Shown in pieces: positions 3,439-58,223 of a stretch of DNA of 64,000 bases. The position numbers and the translations under genes are program-made. The DNA is from Escherichia coli (GTDB taxonomy: Bacteria > Pseudomonadota > Gammaproteobacteria > Enterobacterales > Enterobacteriaceae). Where the stretch lies: NCBI RefSeq assembly GCF_003334335.1, contig NZ_QOWQ01000016.1. One strand, 5' to 3'. The notes beneath the pieces were generated by a model. That model was given only the letters and a program-made list of their open reading frames with translations, did no database searches and was not told the origin of the DNA. Each line of letters begins with the position of its first letter. Position 1 is the first letter of the stretch.

Positions 3439-3978
3439 ATGAAGCAGTTTCTTGATTTTTTACCGCTGGTTGTCTTTTTCGCGTTTTACAAGATTTATGA
3501 CATCTATGCGGCTACTGCGGCGCTGATCGTCGCCACGGCGATTGTGCTTATCTATAGCTGGGTTCGCTTTCGTAAGGTTGAGAAGATGGCCCTGATCACT
3601 TTTGTTCTGGTGGTCGTCTTCGGTGGCTTGACGCTGTTCTTCCACAATGATGAGTTTATTAAATGGAAGGTTACAGTCATTTATGCTCTATTTGCGGGAG
3701 CCCTGTTAGTCAGCCAATGGGTGATGAAAAAGCCGCTAATTCAGCGGATGCTGGGTAAAGAACTCACGCTGCCGCAACCGGTATGGTCGAAGCTGAATCT
3801 GGCCTGGGCTGTTTTCTTTATCCTTTGCGGTCTGGCAAACATCTACATCGCATTCTGGCTGCCGCAAAATATTTGGGTCAACTTTAAAGTCTTTGGCCTG
3901 ACCGCCCTTACCTTAATCTTCACATTGTTAAGCGGTATCTATATCTACCGCCACATGCCGCAGGAAGATAAATCCTAA
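3439..3978 (+). CDS. yciB: Inner membrane protein YciB (intracellular septation protein A)
   Basis: 179 aa multi-pass membrane protein starting [18 protein letters not shown]; synteny. Confidence 0.9.
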
Positions 3979-4082
3979 CCAGACTGCCAGTCCTTCGGGG
4001 CTGGCGCTGTATCTCCTCTGTTCTCCTCAGGAAAATCATAGTAGCATCGCGCCTGTGATTTTCCTTTTAAGTCGGTTTTACC

Positions 4083-4481
4083 ATGTCTACAACACATAAC
4101 GTCCCTCAGGGCGATCTTGTTTTACGTACTTTAGCCATGCCCGCCGATACCAATGCCAATGGTGACATCTTTGGTGGTTGGTTAATGTCACAAATGGATA
4201 TTGGCGGCGCTATTCTGGCAAAAGAAATTGCCCACGGTCGCGTAGTGACTGTGCGGGTTGAAGGAATGACTTTCTTACGGCCGGTTGCGGTCGGCGATGT
4301 GGTGTGCTGCTATGCACGCTGTGTCCAGAAAGGGACGACATCGGTCAGCATTAATATTGAAGTGTGGGTGAAAAAAGTAGCGTCTGAACCAATTGGGCAA
4401 CGCTATAAAGCGACAGAAGCATTATTTAAGTATGTCGCGGTTGATCCTGAAGGAAAACCTCGCGCCTTACCTGTTGAGTAA
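4083..4481 (+). CDS. yciA: Acyl-CoA thioesterase YciA
   Basis: 132 aa starting MSTTHNVPQGDLVLRTLAMPADTNANGDIFGGWLM (hotdog-fold thioesterase); synteny. Confidence 0.9.
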   Translation: MSTTHNVPQGDLVLRTLAMPADTNANGDIFGGWLMSQMDIGGAILAKEIAHGRVVTVRVEGMTFLRPVAVGDVVCCYARCVQKGTTSVSINIEVWVKKVASEPIGQRYKATEALFKYVAVDPEGKPRALPVE

Positions 4482-4485
4482 TAGT

Positions 4486-4511
4486 CAAAAGCCTCCGGTC
4501 GGAGGCTTTTG
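4486..4511. terminator. Bidirectional rho-independent terminator between yciA and tonB
   Basis: Perfect hairpin CAAAAGCCTCCGGTCGGAGGCTTTTG with A/T runs on both sides, between convergent genes. Confidence 0.65.
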
Positions 4512-4520
4512 ACTTTCTGC

Positions 4521-5240
4521 TTACTGAATTTCGGTGGTGCCGTTAATTTTAAACAGGATATTCACCACAATCCCACTGCCTGGCTTACCCGGCTCATAAC
4601 GCCATCTGCGCATCGCATTTTTCACCTCACGCTCAAACATGTTCGCAGGCTTGGCTGAGAGGATTTGTACGTTATCCACGCGACCATCCGGCGTAACGTC
4701 AAATTTAACTTTAACCTGCCCTTCAATGCGCAATGCCTGTGCTCGTGCCGGATACTGCGGCTGATTACGGCTTAATGCGCGTGGTCCTGAAGCCACACTG
4801 GTAACCGGCTTGCTGGTTGCAGCCGTTGCTGTACTTGATGTCAGGCGTGCCGGTGCCGTATTTTCAAACGGTGATGCCGGACGCGACTCTACGGGTTTGA
4901 CATCGCGTTTTGGCTGCTCCTGTACCTTTTTCACCGGCTTCGGTTTTGGCTTAGGTTTCGGCTTCGGCTTTTCAATGACCACCGGTGCTTCTTTTGGCGG
5001 TTCGGGGATCGGCTCAGGTTCCGGTTCTGGCTCTACCACCGGCTCCGGTGGCGGCTGAACGGCTTGTGGCGGTTCGAGATCAGCAGGCGTAACCATCGTG
5101 ACAGAAATCGGCTGCGCAGGCGCAGGTAGTTCAATAACCTGATGTACCGAGGTATAGAGCAGACCCGCCACAACAGCACCATGAATGCAGACCGAAAGTA
5201 ACGTCGGCCAGGGGAAGCGGCGAGGTAAATCAAGGGTCAT
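4521..5240 (-). CDS. tonB: Energy transducer TonB
   Basis: 239 aa from MTLDLPRRFPWPTLLSVCIHGAVVAG with (EP)n/(KP)n spacer and C-terminal domain; the ORF-track start at 5291 is an upstream extension. Confidence 0.95.
   Translation of the reverse strand: MTLDLPRRFPWPTLLSVCIHGAVVAGLLYTSVHQVIELPAPAQPISVTMVTPADLEPPQAVQPPPEPVVEPEPEPEPIPEPPKEAPVVIEKPKPKPKPKPKPVKKVQEQPKRDVKPVESRPASPFENTAPARLTSSTATAATSKPVTSVASGPRALSRNQPQYPARAQALRIEGQVKVKFDVTPDGRVDNVQILSAKPANMFEREVKNAMRRWRYEPGKPGSGIVVNILFKINGTTEIQ
4929..5045 (-). repeat. Proline-rich (Glu-Pro)n/(Lys-Pro)n coding repeat inside tonB
   Basis: Encodes EPVVEPEPEPEPIPEPPKEAPVVIEKPKPKPKPKPKP; low-complexity periodic nucleotide sequence. Confidence 0.7.
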
Positions 5241-5330
5241 TGAAGTCATAATCATTTCAGTAGAAAAACCAGGTCTCGATTTTAAATGCAAATAGCAATC
5301 ATATTCAATAAGGCAAGACGATCAGGATCA
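5241..5330 (-). promoter_or_regulatory. tonB promoter region with Fur-box-like sequences
   Basis: Reverse complement reads ...TTGAATATGATTGCTATTTGCATTTAAAATCGAGACC...TGAAATGATTATGACTTCAATG, the classical tonB promoter with GATAAT/ATGATT-type Fur half-sites. Confidence 0.45.
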
Positions 5331-5463
5331 GTGAAAATGTCATTTTTGGCGTAATTACCCTTACTTTATGCATGGCCTTAACAAAGACATCATCTTTCCG
5401 TTGCAGATCTTCGCCCTTTCAAATAACGTACTTTACAACTTTCCCGAACAAGGAGTTGTGCCC

Positions 5464-5760
5464 GTGTTGTATGTTATTTACGCTCAAGACAAAGCTGATA
5501 GCCTCGAAAAACGCCTTTCCGTTCGTCCGGCACATTTAGCACGTTTACAGTTACTGCATGATGAAGGTCGTTTGTTGACAGCTGGTCCAATGCCAGCGGT
5601 AGACAGTAACGATCCAGGGGCTGCGGGATTTACTGGCTCAACCGTTATTGCTGAATTTGAATCGCTGGAAGCAGCTCAGGCCTGGGCCGATGCTGACCCG
5701 TACGTAGCGGCAGGAGTCTATGAACACGTTTCAGTGAAACCATTTAAGAAAGTGTTCTGA
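5464..5760 (+). CDS. yciI: YciI-like protein
   Basis: 98 aa from a GTG start ([25 protein letters not shown]...); ORF-track start at 5368 is an extension. Confidence 0.8.
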
Positions 5761-5781
5761 ATAGAGATTCAATATTTAAGG

Positions 5782-5810
5782 GCACGGTTTTTGCAACCGT
5801 GTTCTTGTTT
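5782..5810 (+). terminator. Candidate rho-independent terminator after yciI
   Basis: Hairpin CACGGTT-tttgc-AACCGTG followed by TTCTTGTTT. Confidence 0.4.
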
Positions 5811-6059
5811 GGCCTTTCCTTATAGCCGGTCAGTGCATTCACCACCACAAGCAGATAATAACTTTATCTGTATTTCTTTATATGATGTGAGCATATTCAG
5901 GAAAAATGACCTTTCCTGAGGTACAGTTGCTCGCTCAAATCCTTTGATTACTGCGGATAAAGTCATCTACTATTGTTTAACACATTCACGCGCTGCATGT
6001 ATGTTCAGAAAATGTGCACGCTAAGATAATTAAACAAAATTGTGGTTACAGAGGTATCA

Positions 6060-7313
6060 GTGAGTCACTGGGCTACATTCAAACAAACAGCAACAAATTT
6101 ATGGGTGACCCTTCGGCACGACATTCTCGCGCTGGCCGTCTTTTTAAATGGATTGCTTATTTTTAAAACAATCTATGGTATGTCGGTCAATTTGCTTGAT
6201 ATTTTCCATATCAAAGCATTTTCAGAGTTGGATCTCTCCTTGCTGGCAAACGCCCCACTCTTTATGCTCGGCGTCTTTCTTGTCCTGAACTCCATTGGCT
6301 TACTGTTCCGGGCAAAGCTCGCATGGGCAATCAGTATCATTTTGTTGTTGATAGCGCTAATTTACACCCTGCATTTTTATCCCTGGCTGAAATTTAGTAT
6401 TGGATTTTGCATTTTTACGCTGGTGTTTTTGCTGATACTGCGCAAAGACTTCTCCCACAGTAGCGCCGCAGCCGGGACAATTTTTGCATTTATTAGTTTC
6501 ACGACATTACTGTTTTACTCAACCTACGGTGCGCTTTATTTAAGCGAAGGTTTTAATCCGCGAATAGAAAGTTTGATGACCGCGTTCTATTTTTCGATAG
6601 AAACCATGTCAACCGTCGGCTATGGCGATATTGTCCCTGTTTCTGAATCAGCACGATTGTTCACTATTTCGGTCATTATTTCCGGCATTACCGTTTTTGC
6701 CACATCTATGACCTCAATTTTTGGTCCGCTTATCCGCGGGGGATTCAACAAACTTGTAAAAGGAAACAATCATACAATGCATCGTAAAGATCATTTTATT
6801 GTTTGCGGACATTCGATTCTCGCCATCAATACGATCCTGCAACTGAATCAACGCGGACAAAACGTAACGGTTATCAGCAACTTGCCTGAAGATGATATCA
6901 AGCAACTTGAGCAACGCTTAGGCGATAATGCTGATGTTATCCCCGGTGACAGTAATGACAGTTCTGTATTAAAGAAAGCGGGAATCGATCGTTGCCGGGC
7001 CATTCTGGCGCTGAGTGATAACGATGCAGATAACGCGTTTGTTGTACTCTCGGCAAAAGATATGAGCAGTGATGTCAAAACAGTTCTCGCCGTCAGTGAT
7101 AGCAAAAACCTGAATAAGATTAAGATGGTACATCCGGATATCATTCTCTCACCGCAACTGTTTGGCAGCGAAATTCTGGCGCGAGTTTTAAATGGTGAAG
7201 AGATTAATAATGATATGCTCGTTTCAATGTTGTTGAACTCAGGTCATGGTATTTTCAGCGATAACGATGAACTAGAAACGAAAGCTGACAGTAAAGAATC
7301 GGCGCAAAAATAG
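6060..7313 (+). CDS. kch: Voltage-gated potassium channel Kch
   Basis: 417 aa from a GTG start (MSHWATFKQTATNLWV...); contains the K+ selectivity filter TVGYGD and a C-terminal RCK/TrkA-like domain. Confidence 0.9.
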   Translation: MSHWATFKQTATNLWVTLRHDILALAVFLNGLLIFKTIYGMSVNLLDIFHIKAFSELDLSLLANAPLFMLGVFLVLNSIGLLFRAKLAWAISIILLLIALIYTLHFYPWLKFSIGFCIFTLVFLLILRKDFSHSSAAAGTIFAFISFTTLLFYSTYGALYLSEGFNPRIESLMTAFYFSIETMSTVGYGDIVPVSESARLFTISVIISGITVFATSMTSIFGPLIRGGFNKLVKGNNHTMHRKDHFIVCGHSILAINTILQLNQRGQNVTVISNLPEDDIKQLEQRLGDNADVIPGDSNDSSVLKKAGIDRCRAILALSDNDADNAFVVLSAKDMSSDVKTVLAVSDSKNLNKIKMVHPDIILSPQLFGSEILARVLNGEEINNDMLVSMLLNSGHGIFSDNDELETKADSKESAQK

Positions 7314-56363: not shown

Positions 56364-57455
56364 ATGGGATTCAAATGCGGTATCGTCGGTTTGCCCAACG
56401 TCGGGAAATCTACCCTGTTCAACGCGCTGACCAAAGCCGGTATTGAAGCGGCCAACTTTCCATTCTGCACCATTGAGCCGAACACAGGCGTCGTACCAAT
56501 GCCTGATCCTCGCCTGGATCAACTGGCTGAAATCGTAAAACCGCAGCGTACGCTTCCCACGACCATGGAATTTGTCGATATCGCCGGTCTGGTAAAAGGC
56601 GCATCGAAAGGCGAAGGTCTGGGTAACCAGTTCCTGACCAACATCCGTGAAACCGAAGCGATCGGTCACGTTGTTCGCTGCTTTGAAAATGACAACATCA
56701 TTCACGTTTCCGGCAAAGTTAACCCGGCTGACGATATTGAAGTTATCAACACCGAACTGGCGCTGGCAGACCTCGACACCTGCGAACGTGCGATTCATCG
56801 CGTACAGAAGAAAGCCAAAGGTGGCGATAAAGACGCGAAAGCTGAGCTGGCGGTCCTGGAAAAATGCCTGCCCCAGTTGGAAAATGCAGGTATGCTGCGC
56901 GCGCTGGATTTAAGCGCTGAAGAGAAAGCGGCTATTCGTTACCTGAGCTTCCTGACGCTGAAACCAACAATGTACATCGCCAACGTCAACGAAGACGGTT
57001 TTGAAAACAACCCATATCTTGACCAGGTGCGTGAAATCGCGGCGAAAGAAGGTTCTGTTGTGGTTCCGGTTTGTGCTGCTGTTGAAGCAGACATTGCCGA
57101 ACTGGACGACGAAGAACGTGACGAGTTTATGCAGGAGCTTGGGCTGGAAGAGCCGGGCCTGAACCGTGTGATCCGTGCCGGTTATAAACTGCTGAACCTG
57201 CAAACTTACTTCACCGCTGGGGTGAAAGAAGTGCGTGCATGGACCATTCCGGTTGGAGCAACCGCGCCGCAGGCAGCGGGCAAAATCCATACTGATTTTG
57301 AAAAAGGCTTTATCCGTGCACAAACCATCTCGTTTGAAGATTTCATCACTTACAAAGGTGAACAAGGCGCGAAAGAAGCAGGCAAAATGCGTGCAGAAGG
57401 TAAAGATTACATCGTGAAAGATGGCGATGTGATGAACTTCCTTTTCAACGTCTAA
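56364..57455 (+). CDS. ychF: Ribosome-binding ATPase YchF (Obg-family GTPase fold)
   Basis: 363 aa; G1 motif GLPNVGKST and C-terminal TGS domain. Confidence 0.95.
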
Positions 57456-57512
57456 TTAATTTATTGTCTCATGAGGTTTCGCTAAATCTCATGAAGAGCG
57501 CAAAAGTATATA

Positions 57513-57540
57513 AAATCCACGCAATTGCGTGGATTTTTCA
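57513..57540 (+). terminator. Rho-independent terminator of ychF
   Basis: Hairpin ATCCACGCAATTGCGTGGAT (57515-57534) followed by TTTT. Confidence 0.7.
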
Positions 57541-57699
57541 TTTCACCGAGTCCTAATCATTCTTGTAACATCCTACACTTTTGTGCTTATTGCCTATAGT
57601 GAACCACGAGAATAATTAAAGACATAAGTGTTCAGATGACGGATATCTCATTAGCAGTGATATAACGTAAGTTTTTGTATCACTACACATCAGCCCCCT

Positions 57700-57882
57700 T
57701 CACAGCTGATCAAAATTGATCACGCTCCAATATGCTGGCAAGATGAAAATGATAACCAGTAGCACAATAACAACGATAGGCCAGAAAACCCATTGACCAA
57801 AAATGAATATCGATGTTTTTTGCTTTTTCTTATTAGTAATGCAAAAATGGCGCATATTGTTTTTGTTATGCAGATACATCAA
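57700..57882 (-). CDS. Hypothetical small membrane protein (single predicted TM helix), unverified
   Basis: 60-aa ORF in the AT-rich ychF-ycgV spacer with a basic stretch then a hydrophobic segment (WVFWPIVVIVLLVIIFILPAYW). No other coding support. Confidence 0.2.
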   Translation of the reverse strand: MMYLHNKNNMRHFCITNKKKQKTSIFIFGQWVFWPIVVIVLLVIIFILPAYWSVINFDQL

Positions 57883-58223
57883 GCGAAATTCCCATAACTA
57901 ATTAGGATTATTACAAAAAATCTTCACCAAATTTTTTAACCGCTGTTTGTTGTAATATTTTTGCCATATTTATAGTAACGAATTGGAATAAGTAACGACA
58001 ACTTAGGGAATAACTCGATATAAACTCACCTTTGTAAGGGGGATGTTAAATATATATTAATTCCTGTGTTCCTGATTTTGCCCGGTAATAGAGAATTATT
58101 CTCTGAGAAGCTCATCATGATTGCACCATACAAATATCATGATGATAAGAGGATATTATTCATTGATTTAAACAAAATGACAAAATCCATAGACCCATAG
58201 TCTGGGTACTATATAGGAGTGGT

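What the first reader, a model, noticed from the sequence alone, without database searches (positions are those of the whole stretch)
57456..58223. AT-rich 770-bp spacer upstream of ycgV with a candidate small membrane-protein ORF
The ychF-ycgV spacer is strongly AT-rich with many A/T tracts, typical of H-NS-silenced horizontally acquired adhesin promoters. It contains a 60-aa minus-strand ORF (57700-57882) with one predicted TM helix, which may be an unannotated small protein or a chance ORF.
Basis: inference. Interest (0 to 1): 0.3.

Follow-up and report, generated by a model that had tools for sequence, protein, structure and literature searches.

The report
H-NS-bound AT-rich spacer, orphan ORF
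The 768-bp gap between ychF and the cryptic adhesin gene ycgV is a real, already catalogued AT-rich region that binds the silencing protein H-NS, and the small membrane-protein-like ORF inside it is an E. coli-only reading frame that evolves neutrally and is most likely not a working gene.

Summary
The spacer 57456-58223 is exactly the ychF-ycgV gap. It has 33.7% GC, the lowest of any 768-bp stretch in the window, and twice the expected number of A/T tracts. The minus-strand ORF 57700-57882 exists, with a better ATG start at 57879.

The H-NS reading is supported by the literature. This spacer is one of 78 published E. coli "promoter islands" and is scored as H-NS-bound in all ChIP studies compared there. 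About a quarter of complete E. coli genomes lack ycgV and its upstream region.

The ORF is not a convincing gene:
- Its length is what chance gives: 44% of shuffles have an ORF of at least 60 codons.
- No homologue was found outside E. coli/Shigella among 1.84 billion protein representatives.
- Across 15 haplotypes it shows 12 nonsynonymous and 3 synonymous changes (dN/dS about 1). The adjacent ychF shows 0 and 18.
- It ends at 29, 49, 59, 67 or 84 codons in different strains.
- The K-12 form results from a 75-bp deletion between 9-bp direct repeats.

One point argues against pure chance: the hydrophobic stretch is stronger than composition predicts. A decayed or nascent orphan gene is therefore not excluded. 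The ORF is already auto-annotated as a hypothetical or membrane protein in many GenBank records. Overall this is ordinary and already known.

The parts
57468..57494 (+). Small hairpin just after the ychF stop codon: CTCATGAG, 12 nt, CTCATGA
   Evidence: Read directly from the sequence. Conserved in the aligned haplotypes.
57512..57537 (.). Intrinsic terminator hairpin (13-nt arms, 100% complementary) with T-runs on both sides. It ends ychF and would also end any minus-strand transcript from the spacer.
   Evidence: Terminator scan, inverted repeat I2, and the fold. This is the only part of the spacer kept in ST131-type genomes, which match query positions 10-89 only. The sub-threshold Rfam Leu_leader hits lie on or beside this terminator and hairpin stretch.
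57700..57879 (-). Orphan ORF of 59 codons from the ATG at 57879 (60 from the TTG at 57882). It has a basic N-terminus (KKKQK) and one strongly hydrophobic segment. The K-12-type allele is shortened by a 75-bp deletion.
   Evidence: ORF list. Alleles of 29, 49, 59, 67 and 84 aa. N:S = 12:3. No homologues outside E. coli/Shigella. No Pfam, NCBIfam or PHROG family.
57735..57743 (.). The remaining copy of the 9-bp direct repeat CTGGCAAGA. It marks the junction of the 75-bp deletion relative to other E. coli.
   Evidence: Alignment of the spacer from other strains. The junction-specific 40-mer is found in 1988 of 5426 genomes.
57766..58066 (.). Published "promoter island" (1255333_301 in U00096.2 coordinates), scored as H-NS-bound in all ChIP studies compared. 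This is the most AT-rich core, with 27.5-32% GC in the 200-bp windows starting at 57800-58000.
   Evidence: PMC3661553 Table 1. The coordinate conversion (+777 to U00096.3, then window = 1314176 - x) is mine. Composition profile.
58098..58223 (+). Region immediately upstream of ycgV, used as the 126-bp EMSA probe reported to bind the repressor YbdO in an avian pathogenic strain. It contains the ycgV Shine-Dalgarno sequence AGGAG.
   Evidence: The primer sequences in PMC11681634 map exactly to 58098-58117 and 58204-58223 of the window.
58112..58145 (.). Perfect 10-bp inverted repeat TCATCATGAT, 14 nt, ATCATGATGA. It is invariant in all 15 haplotypes and is a candidate operator or 5'-UTR hairpin for ycgV.
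   Evidence: Inverted repeat I6 and the haplotype comparison.
58224..61101 (+). ycgV autotransporter adhesin gene. In this window it is frameshifted by a third copy of a 10-bp unit at 58350-58379.
   Evidence: Removing 10 bp restores the 2868-bp K-12 gene with one mismatch.

Best explanation
The spacer is the AT-rich, A-tract-rich regulatory region of the accessory autotransporter gene ycgV, which is cryptic under laboratory conditions. At its 5' end it begins with the ychF terminator.

Its core (~57766-58066) is a known "promoter island": DNA that RNA polymerase and H-NS both bind. The inferred mechanism is that H-NS nucleates on the AT-rich, A-tract DNA and spreads, which keeps the ycgV promoter and any divergent minus-strand promoter quiet. 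The proximal 126 bp carry additional repressor input; YbdO binding has been reported there.

The minus-strand ORF lies partly inside this silenced DNA. It is an E. coli/Shigella-restricted orphan reading frame that evolves without detectable constraint on its protein sequence. It is therefore most likely not a functional protein gene today. It is either the decaying remnant of a small membrane-protein gene that arrived with the ycgV segment, or a T-rich proto-ORF.

What is shown: composition, H-NS occupancy (literature), presence/absence polymorphism, lack of constraint, allele structure, and absence of homologues. What is inferred: that H-NS actually silences ycgV from here, and that the ORF is not translated.
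For: - Composition: 33.7% GC, the lowest in the window; A/T tracts 10 against 4.0 +/- 1.9.
- Literature: the spacer is listed as a promoter island, H-NS-bound in all ChIP sets, and linked to a predicted foreign gene. YbdO EMSA on 58098-58223. YcgV promotes adhesion and biofilm formation.
- Accessory locus: the ORF region is present in 4118 of 5426 genomes. ST131 has an integrase and ISEc24 directly after the ychF terminator.
- ORF length equals the chance expectation.
- Substitutions: N:S = 12:3 in codons 1-48 over 15 haplotypes, dN/dS ~1.0. omega = 0.1 is rejected at p = 6e-5 and omega = 0.3 at p = 0.04. The ychF control in the same strains gives 0:18.
- The TM-coding stretch 57756-57805 is among the most variable parts of the region, pi = 0.082.
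- ORF ends at 29, 49, 59, 67 or 84 codons.
- Allele counts: deletion allele 1988 genomes, TAA at codon 68 in 1841, 84-aa-compatible 275.
- No relatives beyond E. coli variants in 1.84e9 representatives, in one genome per species of the GTDB collection, or in plasmids and phages. No Pfam, NCBIfam or PHROG match.
- Not annotated in NC_000913.3 or by PGAP in any listed genome.
Against: - The hydrophobic segment is much stronger than composition predicts (0 of 3978 shuffled ORFs; 0.06% of local shuffles). This points to present or past coding.
- Codons 1-48 are intact in 14 of the 15 haplotypes. Nucleotides 31-81 of the ORF are invariant.
- A plausible extended -10 element (TGtAATAAT) and a weak GGGA Shine-Dalgarno sequence lie upstream of the ATG. 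This is my reading.
- With only 15 substitutions, weak constraint (omega 0.5) cannot be excluded (p = 0.21).
- My simple sigma-70 scan found only 1 promoter-like site in the region, against 4.9 expected. The "island" property therefore rests on the published PlatProm analysis, not on my test.
- I could not inspect any ribosome-profiling, TSS or delta-hns expression data for this locus.
Confidence: 0.72

Rival explanations
1. The ORF encodes a real small inner-membrane protein of 59-84 aa. It would have its N-terminus in the cytoplasm, one TM helix and a variable C-terminal tail. It would be transcribed divergently from ycgV, be produced only when H-NS silencing is lifted, and terminate at the bidirectional ychF terminator.
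For: - Hydrophobic segment far beyond the compositional expectation.
- A positive-inside N-terminus (KKKQK) followed by a helix of about 25 residues.
- The 75-bp indel keeps the frame.
- Codons 1-48 are intact in 14 of 15 haplotypes.
- PredictProtein called 1 TMH and inner-membrane location for the O157 allele.
- Gene callers predict it in many assemblies.
Against: - dN/dS ~1, including a W30-to-stop allele.
- High-frequency alleles have three different C-termini.
- No homologue outside E. coli/Shigella.
- Not in the K-12 RefSeq annotation (copy of Sept 2026), which includes the curated small proteins.
- Absent from the portions of the Ribo-seq small-ORF supplements I could search.
- It lies partly inside H-NS-bound DNA.
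Confidence: 0.12
2. The ORF is the toxin of a type I toxin-antitoxin-like module: a small hydrophobic peptide held in check by an antisense or overlapping small RNA.
For: The size and hydrophobicity resemble Ldr, Ibs and Hok-type peptides (from established knowledge). About 160 nt of 3' UTR lie before the terminator, and the 401-nt minus-strand RNA folds slightly better than shuffles (z = -2.0).
Against: - No Rfam family reaches its threshold.
- It is single-copy in nearly all genomes (median 1 place per genome).
- There is no conserved antisense promoter or terminator pair.
- Nonsense and truncation alleles are common, and they occur without any sign that a partner element is being lost.
- No family hit for the peptide.
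Confidence: 0.03
3. It is a pure chance ORF in non-coding DNA that was never coding. Its membrane-like look would be a by-product of T-richness on the minus strand.
For: The ORF length is exactly the chance expectation. The minus strand is T-rich here (AT skew +0.25 at 57600-57799). Evolution is neutral. T-rich intergenic DNA is known to yield TM-like ORFs (the "TM-first" idea from yeast de novo gene work; from my own knowledge).
Against: The strength of the hydrophobic run is not reproduced by region-wide or local dinucleotide-preserving shuffles, even when conditioned on long ORFs. No trinucleotide tandem repeat explains it.
Confidence: 0.13

Closest known systems
E. coli "promoter islands" (Panyukov & Ozoline 2013, PMC3661553)
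   Same: This very spacer is entry 1255333_301 in their list of 78 islands. Like the others it is AT-rich, bound by H-NS and linked to a predicted foreign gene.
   Different: There is nothing new relative to the published entry. My simple sigma-70 consensus scan did not reproduce a high density of promoter-like sites, so that property depends on their algorithm.
H-NS-silenced cryptic adhesin loci of E. coli K-12 (yfaL and ypjA autotransporters, cryptic chaperone-usher fimbriae)
   Same: It is an AT-rich upstream region in front of an adhesin that promotes biofilm formation. yfaL/ypaB is also on the promoter-island list with H-NS binding.
   Different: Derepression of ycgV in a delta-hns strain was not shown in anything I could read. 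The only direct repressor evidence found is for YbdO.
agn43 (flu) regulatory region with Dam/OxyR phase variation
   Same: YcgV is an Ag43-group autotransporter. Differentially methylated GATC sites have been assigned to ycgV. Two GATC sites lie 10 bp apart at 57708-57721.
   Different: Those two sites lie about 500 bp upstream of ycgV, inside the ORF's 3' end. One of them is lost in O157 (GACC). There is no evidence for OxyR binding or phase variation here.
Auto-annotated hypothetical or membrane protein (EDL933_1906, ECH74115_1683, UniRef W8U1P2_ECOLX, CBG34079.1 of strain 042)
   Same: It is the same ORF, in its 59-, 67- and 84/85-aa alleles.
   Different: Those are gene-caller predictions with no experimental support. 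RefSeq PGAP and the curated K-12 annotation omit it.
Experimentally confirmed small membrane proteins of E. coli (found by ribosome profiling and tagging)
   Same: Similar size, a single TM helix and an intergenic location.
   Different: There is no translation evidence, no conservation beyond the species, dN/dS is ~1, and the C-terminus is polymorphic.

Membership tests
H-NS-bound AT-rich promoter island / silenced upstream region of a foreign gene | AT content far above the genome average | tested here: met
   33.7% GC against 49.7% for the window; lowest 768-bp window of the 64 kb. The core is 27.5-32% GC.
H-NS-bound AT-rich promoter island / silenced upstream region of a foreign gene | Enrichment of A/T tracts (curved DNA) | tested here: met
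   10 runs of at least 5 bases against 4.0 +/- 1.9 in shuffles, p = 0.005.
H-NS-bound AT-rich promoter island / silenced upstream region of a foreign gene | H-NS occupancy in vivo | tested here: met
   Checked in the literature only. PMC3661553 Table 1 scores this island "A", meaning bound in the Grainger, Kahramanoglou and Oshima data sets. I could not view the raw ChIP tracks.
H-NS-bound AT-rich promoter island / silenced upstream region of a foreign gene | Unusually high density of promoter-like sites | tested here: inconclusive
   Listed as such by the PlatProm-based study. My simple -35/-10 scan found 1 site against 4.9 expected from shuffles.
H-NS-bound AT-rich promoter island / silenced upstream region of a foreign gene | Association with accessory or horizontally acquired DNA | tested here: met
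   The locus is in about 4100 of 5426 genomes. ST131 carries an integrase and an IS element in its place. It is flagged as foreign by Nakamura et al..
H-NS-bound AT-rich promoter island / silenced upstream region of a foreign gene | Derepression of the downstream gene when hns is deleted | not testable with these tools
   No expression data were accessible.
Functional small membrane protein gene | Predicted transmembrane helix beyond the compositional expectation | tested here: met
   KD19 = 3.06, reached by 0 of 3978 shuffled ORFs and 0.06% of local shuffles.
Functional small membrane protein gene | Reading frame and length conserved among strains | tested here: not met
   Alleles of 29, 49, 59, 67 and 84 aa. 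Allele counts are 1988, 1841 and 275 genomes.
Functional small membrane protein gene | Purifying selection (dN/dS well below 1) | tested here: not met
   N:S = 12:3, dN/dS ~1.0. omega <= 0.3 is rejected at p = 0.04. The ychF control gives 0:18.
Functional small membrane protein gene | Homologues in related species | tested here: not met
   Only E. coli/Shigella variants were found. The scan of one genome per species of the GTDB collection returned only two E. coli-like contaminant contigs. That scan depends on peptide patterns.
Functional small membrane protein gene | Evidence of translation (ribosome footprints, tagged product, peptides) | not testable with these tools
   No hit in the held parts of the supplements of Stringer 2021, Fesenko 2024 and PIRT-Seq. 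The Stringer file was cut when stored. Weaver 2019 and Meydan 2019 were not available.
Type I toxin-antitoxin | Cognate antisense or overlapping small RNA, or membership of a known toxin or RNA family | tested here: not met
   No Rfam family reaches its threshold. No protein family hit. Whether an uncatalogued antisense RNA exists was not testable.

The most novel reading that the evidence does not exclude
The ORF is a young, E. coli-specific orphan gene. It would be a single-pass (two-segment in the 84-aa allele) inner-membrane peptide born in or imported with T-rich DNA. It would be kept silent by H-NS together with ycgV, expressed divergently from it under derepressing conditions, and still segregating as several C-terminal length variants.
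Probability: 0.1. Interest if true: 0.4.

Novelty: already known. Interest (0 to 1): 0.13.

Why it matters
It matters little beyond housekeeping. The spacer is a catalogued H-NS-bound promoter island in front of a cryptic adhesin. The ORF is a known auto-predicted hypothetical that curated annotation rightly leaves out.

Two modest points of value remain. First, the ORF is a clean worked example of a membrane-protein-like frame in silenced AT-rich DNA that shows no protein-level constraint. That is useful as a caution for small-protein discovery. Second, if it were shown to be translated in delta-hns cells, it would be a tractable case of a polymorphic, species-restricted proto-gene.

Tried and rejected
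- Rfam at a permissive threshold gave only sub-threshold Leu_leader hits on or beside the ychF terminator, plus noise.
- Pfam, NCBIfam and PHROGs gave no significant family.
- tblastn against plasmids and phages found only the same chromosomal locus in mislabelled records, and no phage hit.
- The scan of one genome per species of the GTDB collection returned only two contaminant contigs. The E. coli representative there evidently lacks the locus.
- The profile HMM search of 1.84e9 representatives returned only E. coli variants and chimeric or frameshifted calls.
- Literature supplements for translated small ORFs gave no hit, but coverage was incomplete.
- Full-text searches for the peptide and for "ychF-ycgV" found nothing.
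- The EDL933_1906 hit in PMC4765031 looked at first like translation evidence. It is only a length-matched annotated control.
- A degenerate trinucleotide repeat as the source of the hydrophobic run was rejected by TRF.
- A mobile-element origin for the 75-bp segment was considered. It has 9-bp direct repeats at its ends but no terminal inverted repeats I could see, so slipped-strand deletion is the simpler reading.

Full report
**What is there.** The window is the reverse complement of the E. coli K-12 pth-ychF-ycgV-dhaR region. ychF runs 56364-57455 (+) and ycgV starts at 58224 (+). The 768-bp spacer equals MG1655 1255953-1256720 apart from one SNP at 57639. NC_000913.3 has no annotated feature in this spacer, and neither does any PGAP-annotated genome listed.

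**Checking the observation: composition.** The spacer has 33.7% GC against 49.7% for the window. It contains the lowest-GC 768-bp stretch of all 64 kb, and its core has 27.5-32% GC. A/T runs of at least 5 bases number 10, against 4.0 +/- 1.9 in shuffles (p = 0.005). The AT-richness and A/T tracts are therefore real and non-random.

**Checking the observation: the ORF.** The minus-strand ORF 57700-57882 is as described. An ATG at 57879 is the start that public gene calls use. Its length carries no information: dinucleotide-preserving shuffles of the spacer give a longest ORF of 60.2 +/- 15.8 codons, and 44% reach at least 60. Its hydrophobic segment does carry information. The best 19-residue Kyte-Doolittle mean is 3.06. 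That value was reached by none of 3978 shuffled ORFs of at least 40 aa and by 0.06% of shuffles of the ORF's own DNA. T sits at codon position 2 in 19 of 26 codons of that segment.

**Anatomy of the spacer.**
- After the ychF stop codon comes a small hairpin (57468-57494).
- Next is a perfect 13-bp-arm terminator hairpin (57512-57537) with T-runs on both sides. This is the only part of the spacer retained in ST131-type genomes.
- The ORF (57879 down to 57700) is convergent with ychF and divergent from ycgV.
- Upstream of the ORF lies the most AT-rich DNA.
- The last ~110 bp before ycgV are nearly invariant in 15 haplotypes. They contain a perfect 10-bp inverted repeat (58112-58145) and the ycgV Shine-Dalgarno sequence.

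**What the literature already says.**
- PMC3661553 lists "1255333_301 ycgV(-)ychF(-)" among 78 E. coli promoter islands. It marks the island as H-NS-bound in all ChIP studies compared (Grainger, Kahramanoglou, Oshima) and as associated with a gene predicted to be foreign.
- Converting from U00096.2 (+777; my conversion), the island is window ~57766-58066. That interval covers the 5' third of the ORF and its upstream region.
- PMC11681634 reports that YbdO represses ycgV and shifts a 126-bp probe. Its primers map exactly to 58098-58223.
- PMC5493296 lists a SELEX peak between ycgV and ychF.
- YcgV is an Ag43-group autotransporter that promotes adhesion and biofilm formation.
Actual derepression of ycgV in a delta-hns strain was not documented in anything I could read.

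**Accessory nature of the locus.** The ORF region is present in 4118 of 5426 complete E. coli genomes, and the ycgV 5' end in 4108. In ST131 the sequence after the ychF terminator is a tyrosine recombinase gene followed by ISEc24.

**Is the ORF a gene? Distribution.** Protein searches find it only in E. coli and Shigella. The word-indexed search gave 93 close variants. A profile HMM search of 1.84 billion cluster representatives gave 14 hits, all variants, frameshifted calls or chimeras of the same locus. The scan of one genome per species of the GTDB collection returned just two E. coli-like contaminant contigs. Plasmids and phages added nothing. No Pfam, NCBIfam or PHROG family matches.

**Is the ORF a gene? 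Allele structure.**
- Other strains carry 75 extra base pairs inside the ORF, flanked by the 9-bp direct repeat CTGGCRAGA. The K-12 form is therefore a deletion allele.
- The longest form is 84 aa, with a second, weaker hydrophobic segment.
- Most insertion-bearing strains have TAA at codon 68.
- Allele-specific searches count 1988 genomes with the deletion junction, 1841 with the TAA version and 275 with the CAA (84-aa-compatible) version.
- Individual strains also stop at codon 50 (L003) or at codon 30, before the helix (L008).

**Is the ORF a gene? Substitution pattern.** Over 15 haplotypes, codons 1-48 show 12 nonsynonymous changes (one to a stop codon) and 3 synonymous changes, on 115 and 29 sites. 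That gives dN/dS ~1.0. omega = 0.1 is rejected at p = 6e-5 and omega = 0.3 at p = 0.04. The last 471 nt of ychF in the same strains show 0 nonsynonymous and 18 synonymous changes. The helix-coding stretch is among the most variable 50-bp bins of the whole region (pi = 0.082).

**Annotation status of the ORF.** It is not new to the databases. GenBank and UniProt hold it as a "hypothetical protein" or "membrane protein" in many submissions, for example ECH74115_1683, CBG34079.1 and UniRef W8U1P2. It is also EDL933_1906. In PMC4765031 that entry appears only as a length-matched annotated control (1 TMH, inner membrane, no ConSurf family), not as a translated novel gene.

**Translation evidence.** I found no ribosome-profiling evidence for or against translation. 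The supplements I could search had no entry, one of them was truncated, and two key papers were unavailable.

**Interpretation.** The best-supported account is that the spacer is the H-NS-occupied regulatory region of a cryptic, accessory adhesin gene. The ORF within it is an orphan frame under no detectable protein-level constraint. Because the hydrophobic period-3 signal exceeds chance, I favour "decayed or nascent orphan coding sequence" over "pure accident". Either way it is probably not a working gene now (confidence ~0.7). A real, H-NS-silenced small membrane protein remains possible (~0.1). A type I toxin is unlikely (~0.03).

**Verdict.** The H-NS interpretation is supported by published data. 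This is already known and ordinary, with low interest.

Noticed in passing
window 58350-58379 (ycgV codons ~43-52): ycgV is frameshifted in this window. The 10-bp unit CTGCTGATAG is present three times instead of twice, which gives a stop after 50 codons. Removing one copy restores the 2868-bp K-12 gene with a single mismatch. Only about 11 of ~4100 genomes match this version at >=99% identity, so the strain is K-12-like but not MG1655, and its adhesin gene is a pseudogene.
   Followed up: partly
window 57735-57743; L003-L010 and L015-L019, 75 bp inserted relative to the window (L014 carries the K-12-type deletion): There is a 75-bp indel bounded by the 9-bp direct repeat CTGGCRAGA. The deletion allele (K-12 type) is in 1988 genomes. 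It also occurs on a different SNP background (L014, LCHFC type), which suggests either recurrent slippage or recombination.
   Followed up: partly
window 58112-58145 and 58118-58200: A perfect 10-bp inverted repeat (TCATCATGAT, 14 nt, ATCATGATGA) is invariant in 15 haplotypes and lies inside the published YbdO EMSA probe. It overlaps a 27-codon plus-strand ORF (MIAPYKYHDDKRILFIDLNKMTKSIDP) that ends 23 nt before the ycgV ATG. It could be an operator, a 5'-UTR hairpin or a leader ORF.
   Followed up: no
L013 (E. coli ST131 strain 751), locus 3581-7080: In ST131 the DNA right after the ychF terminator is a tyrosine recombinase gene, ISEc24 and fragments of other mobile-element genes, in place of the spacer and ycgV. 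The 3' end of ychF therefore looks like an island insertion point.
   Followed up: no
hit H1, NZ_CP123255.1 (strain YZMc17-1): An IS1 transposase is annotated inside an otherwise 100% identical copy of this spacer; the match is split into two pieces spanning 1541 bp.
   Followed up: no
L011 (Actinomycetes MAG JAEWQO010000123.1) and L012 (Streptomyces sp. DH24, 400-bp contig, coverage 0.84): Both contigs carry the K-12-type allele of this E. coli locus. They are almost certainly E. coli contamination in those assemblies.
   Followed up: no
window 57708-57711 and 57718-57721: Two GATC (Dam) sites lie 10 bp apart in the 3' end of the ORF. One is lost in O157 (GACC). A preprint reports differentially methylated GATC sites assigned to ycgV but gives no positions.
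   Followed up: no
window 57656-57705: The 50 bp just downstream of the ORF stop codon are the most variable bin of the region (pi = 0.098, 14 segregating sites, small indels). They include a G-rich run (AAGGGGG) followed by a 24-codon ORF that is not conserved.
   Followed up: no
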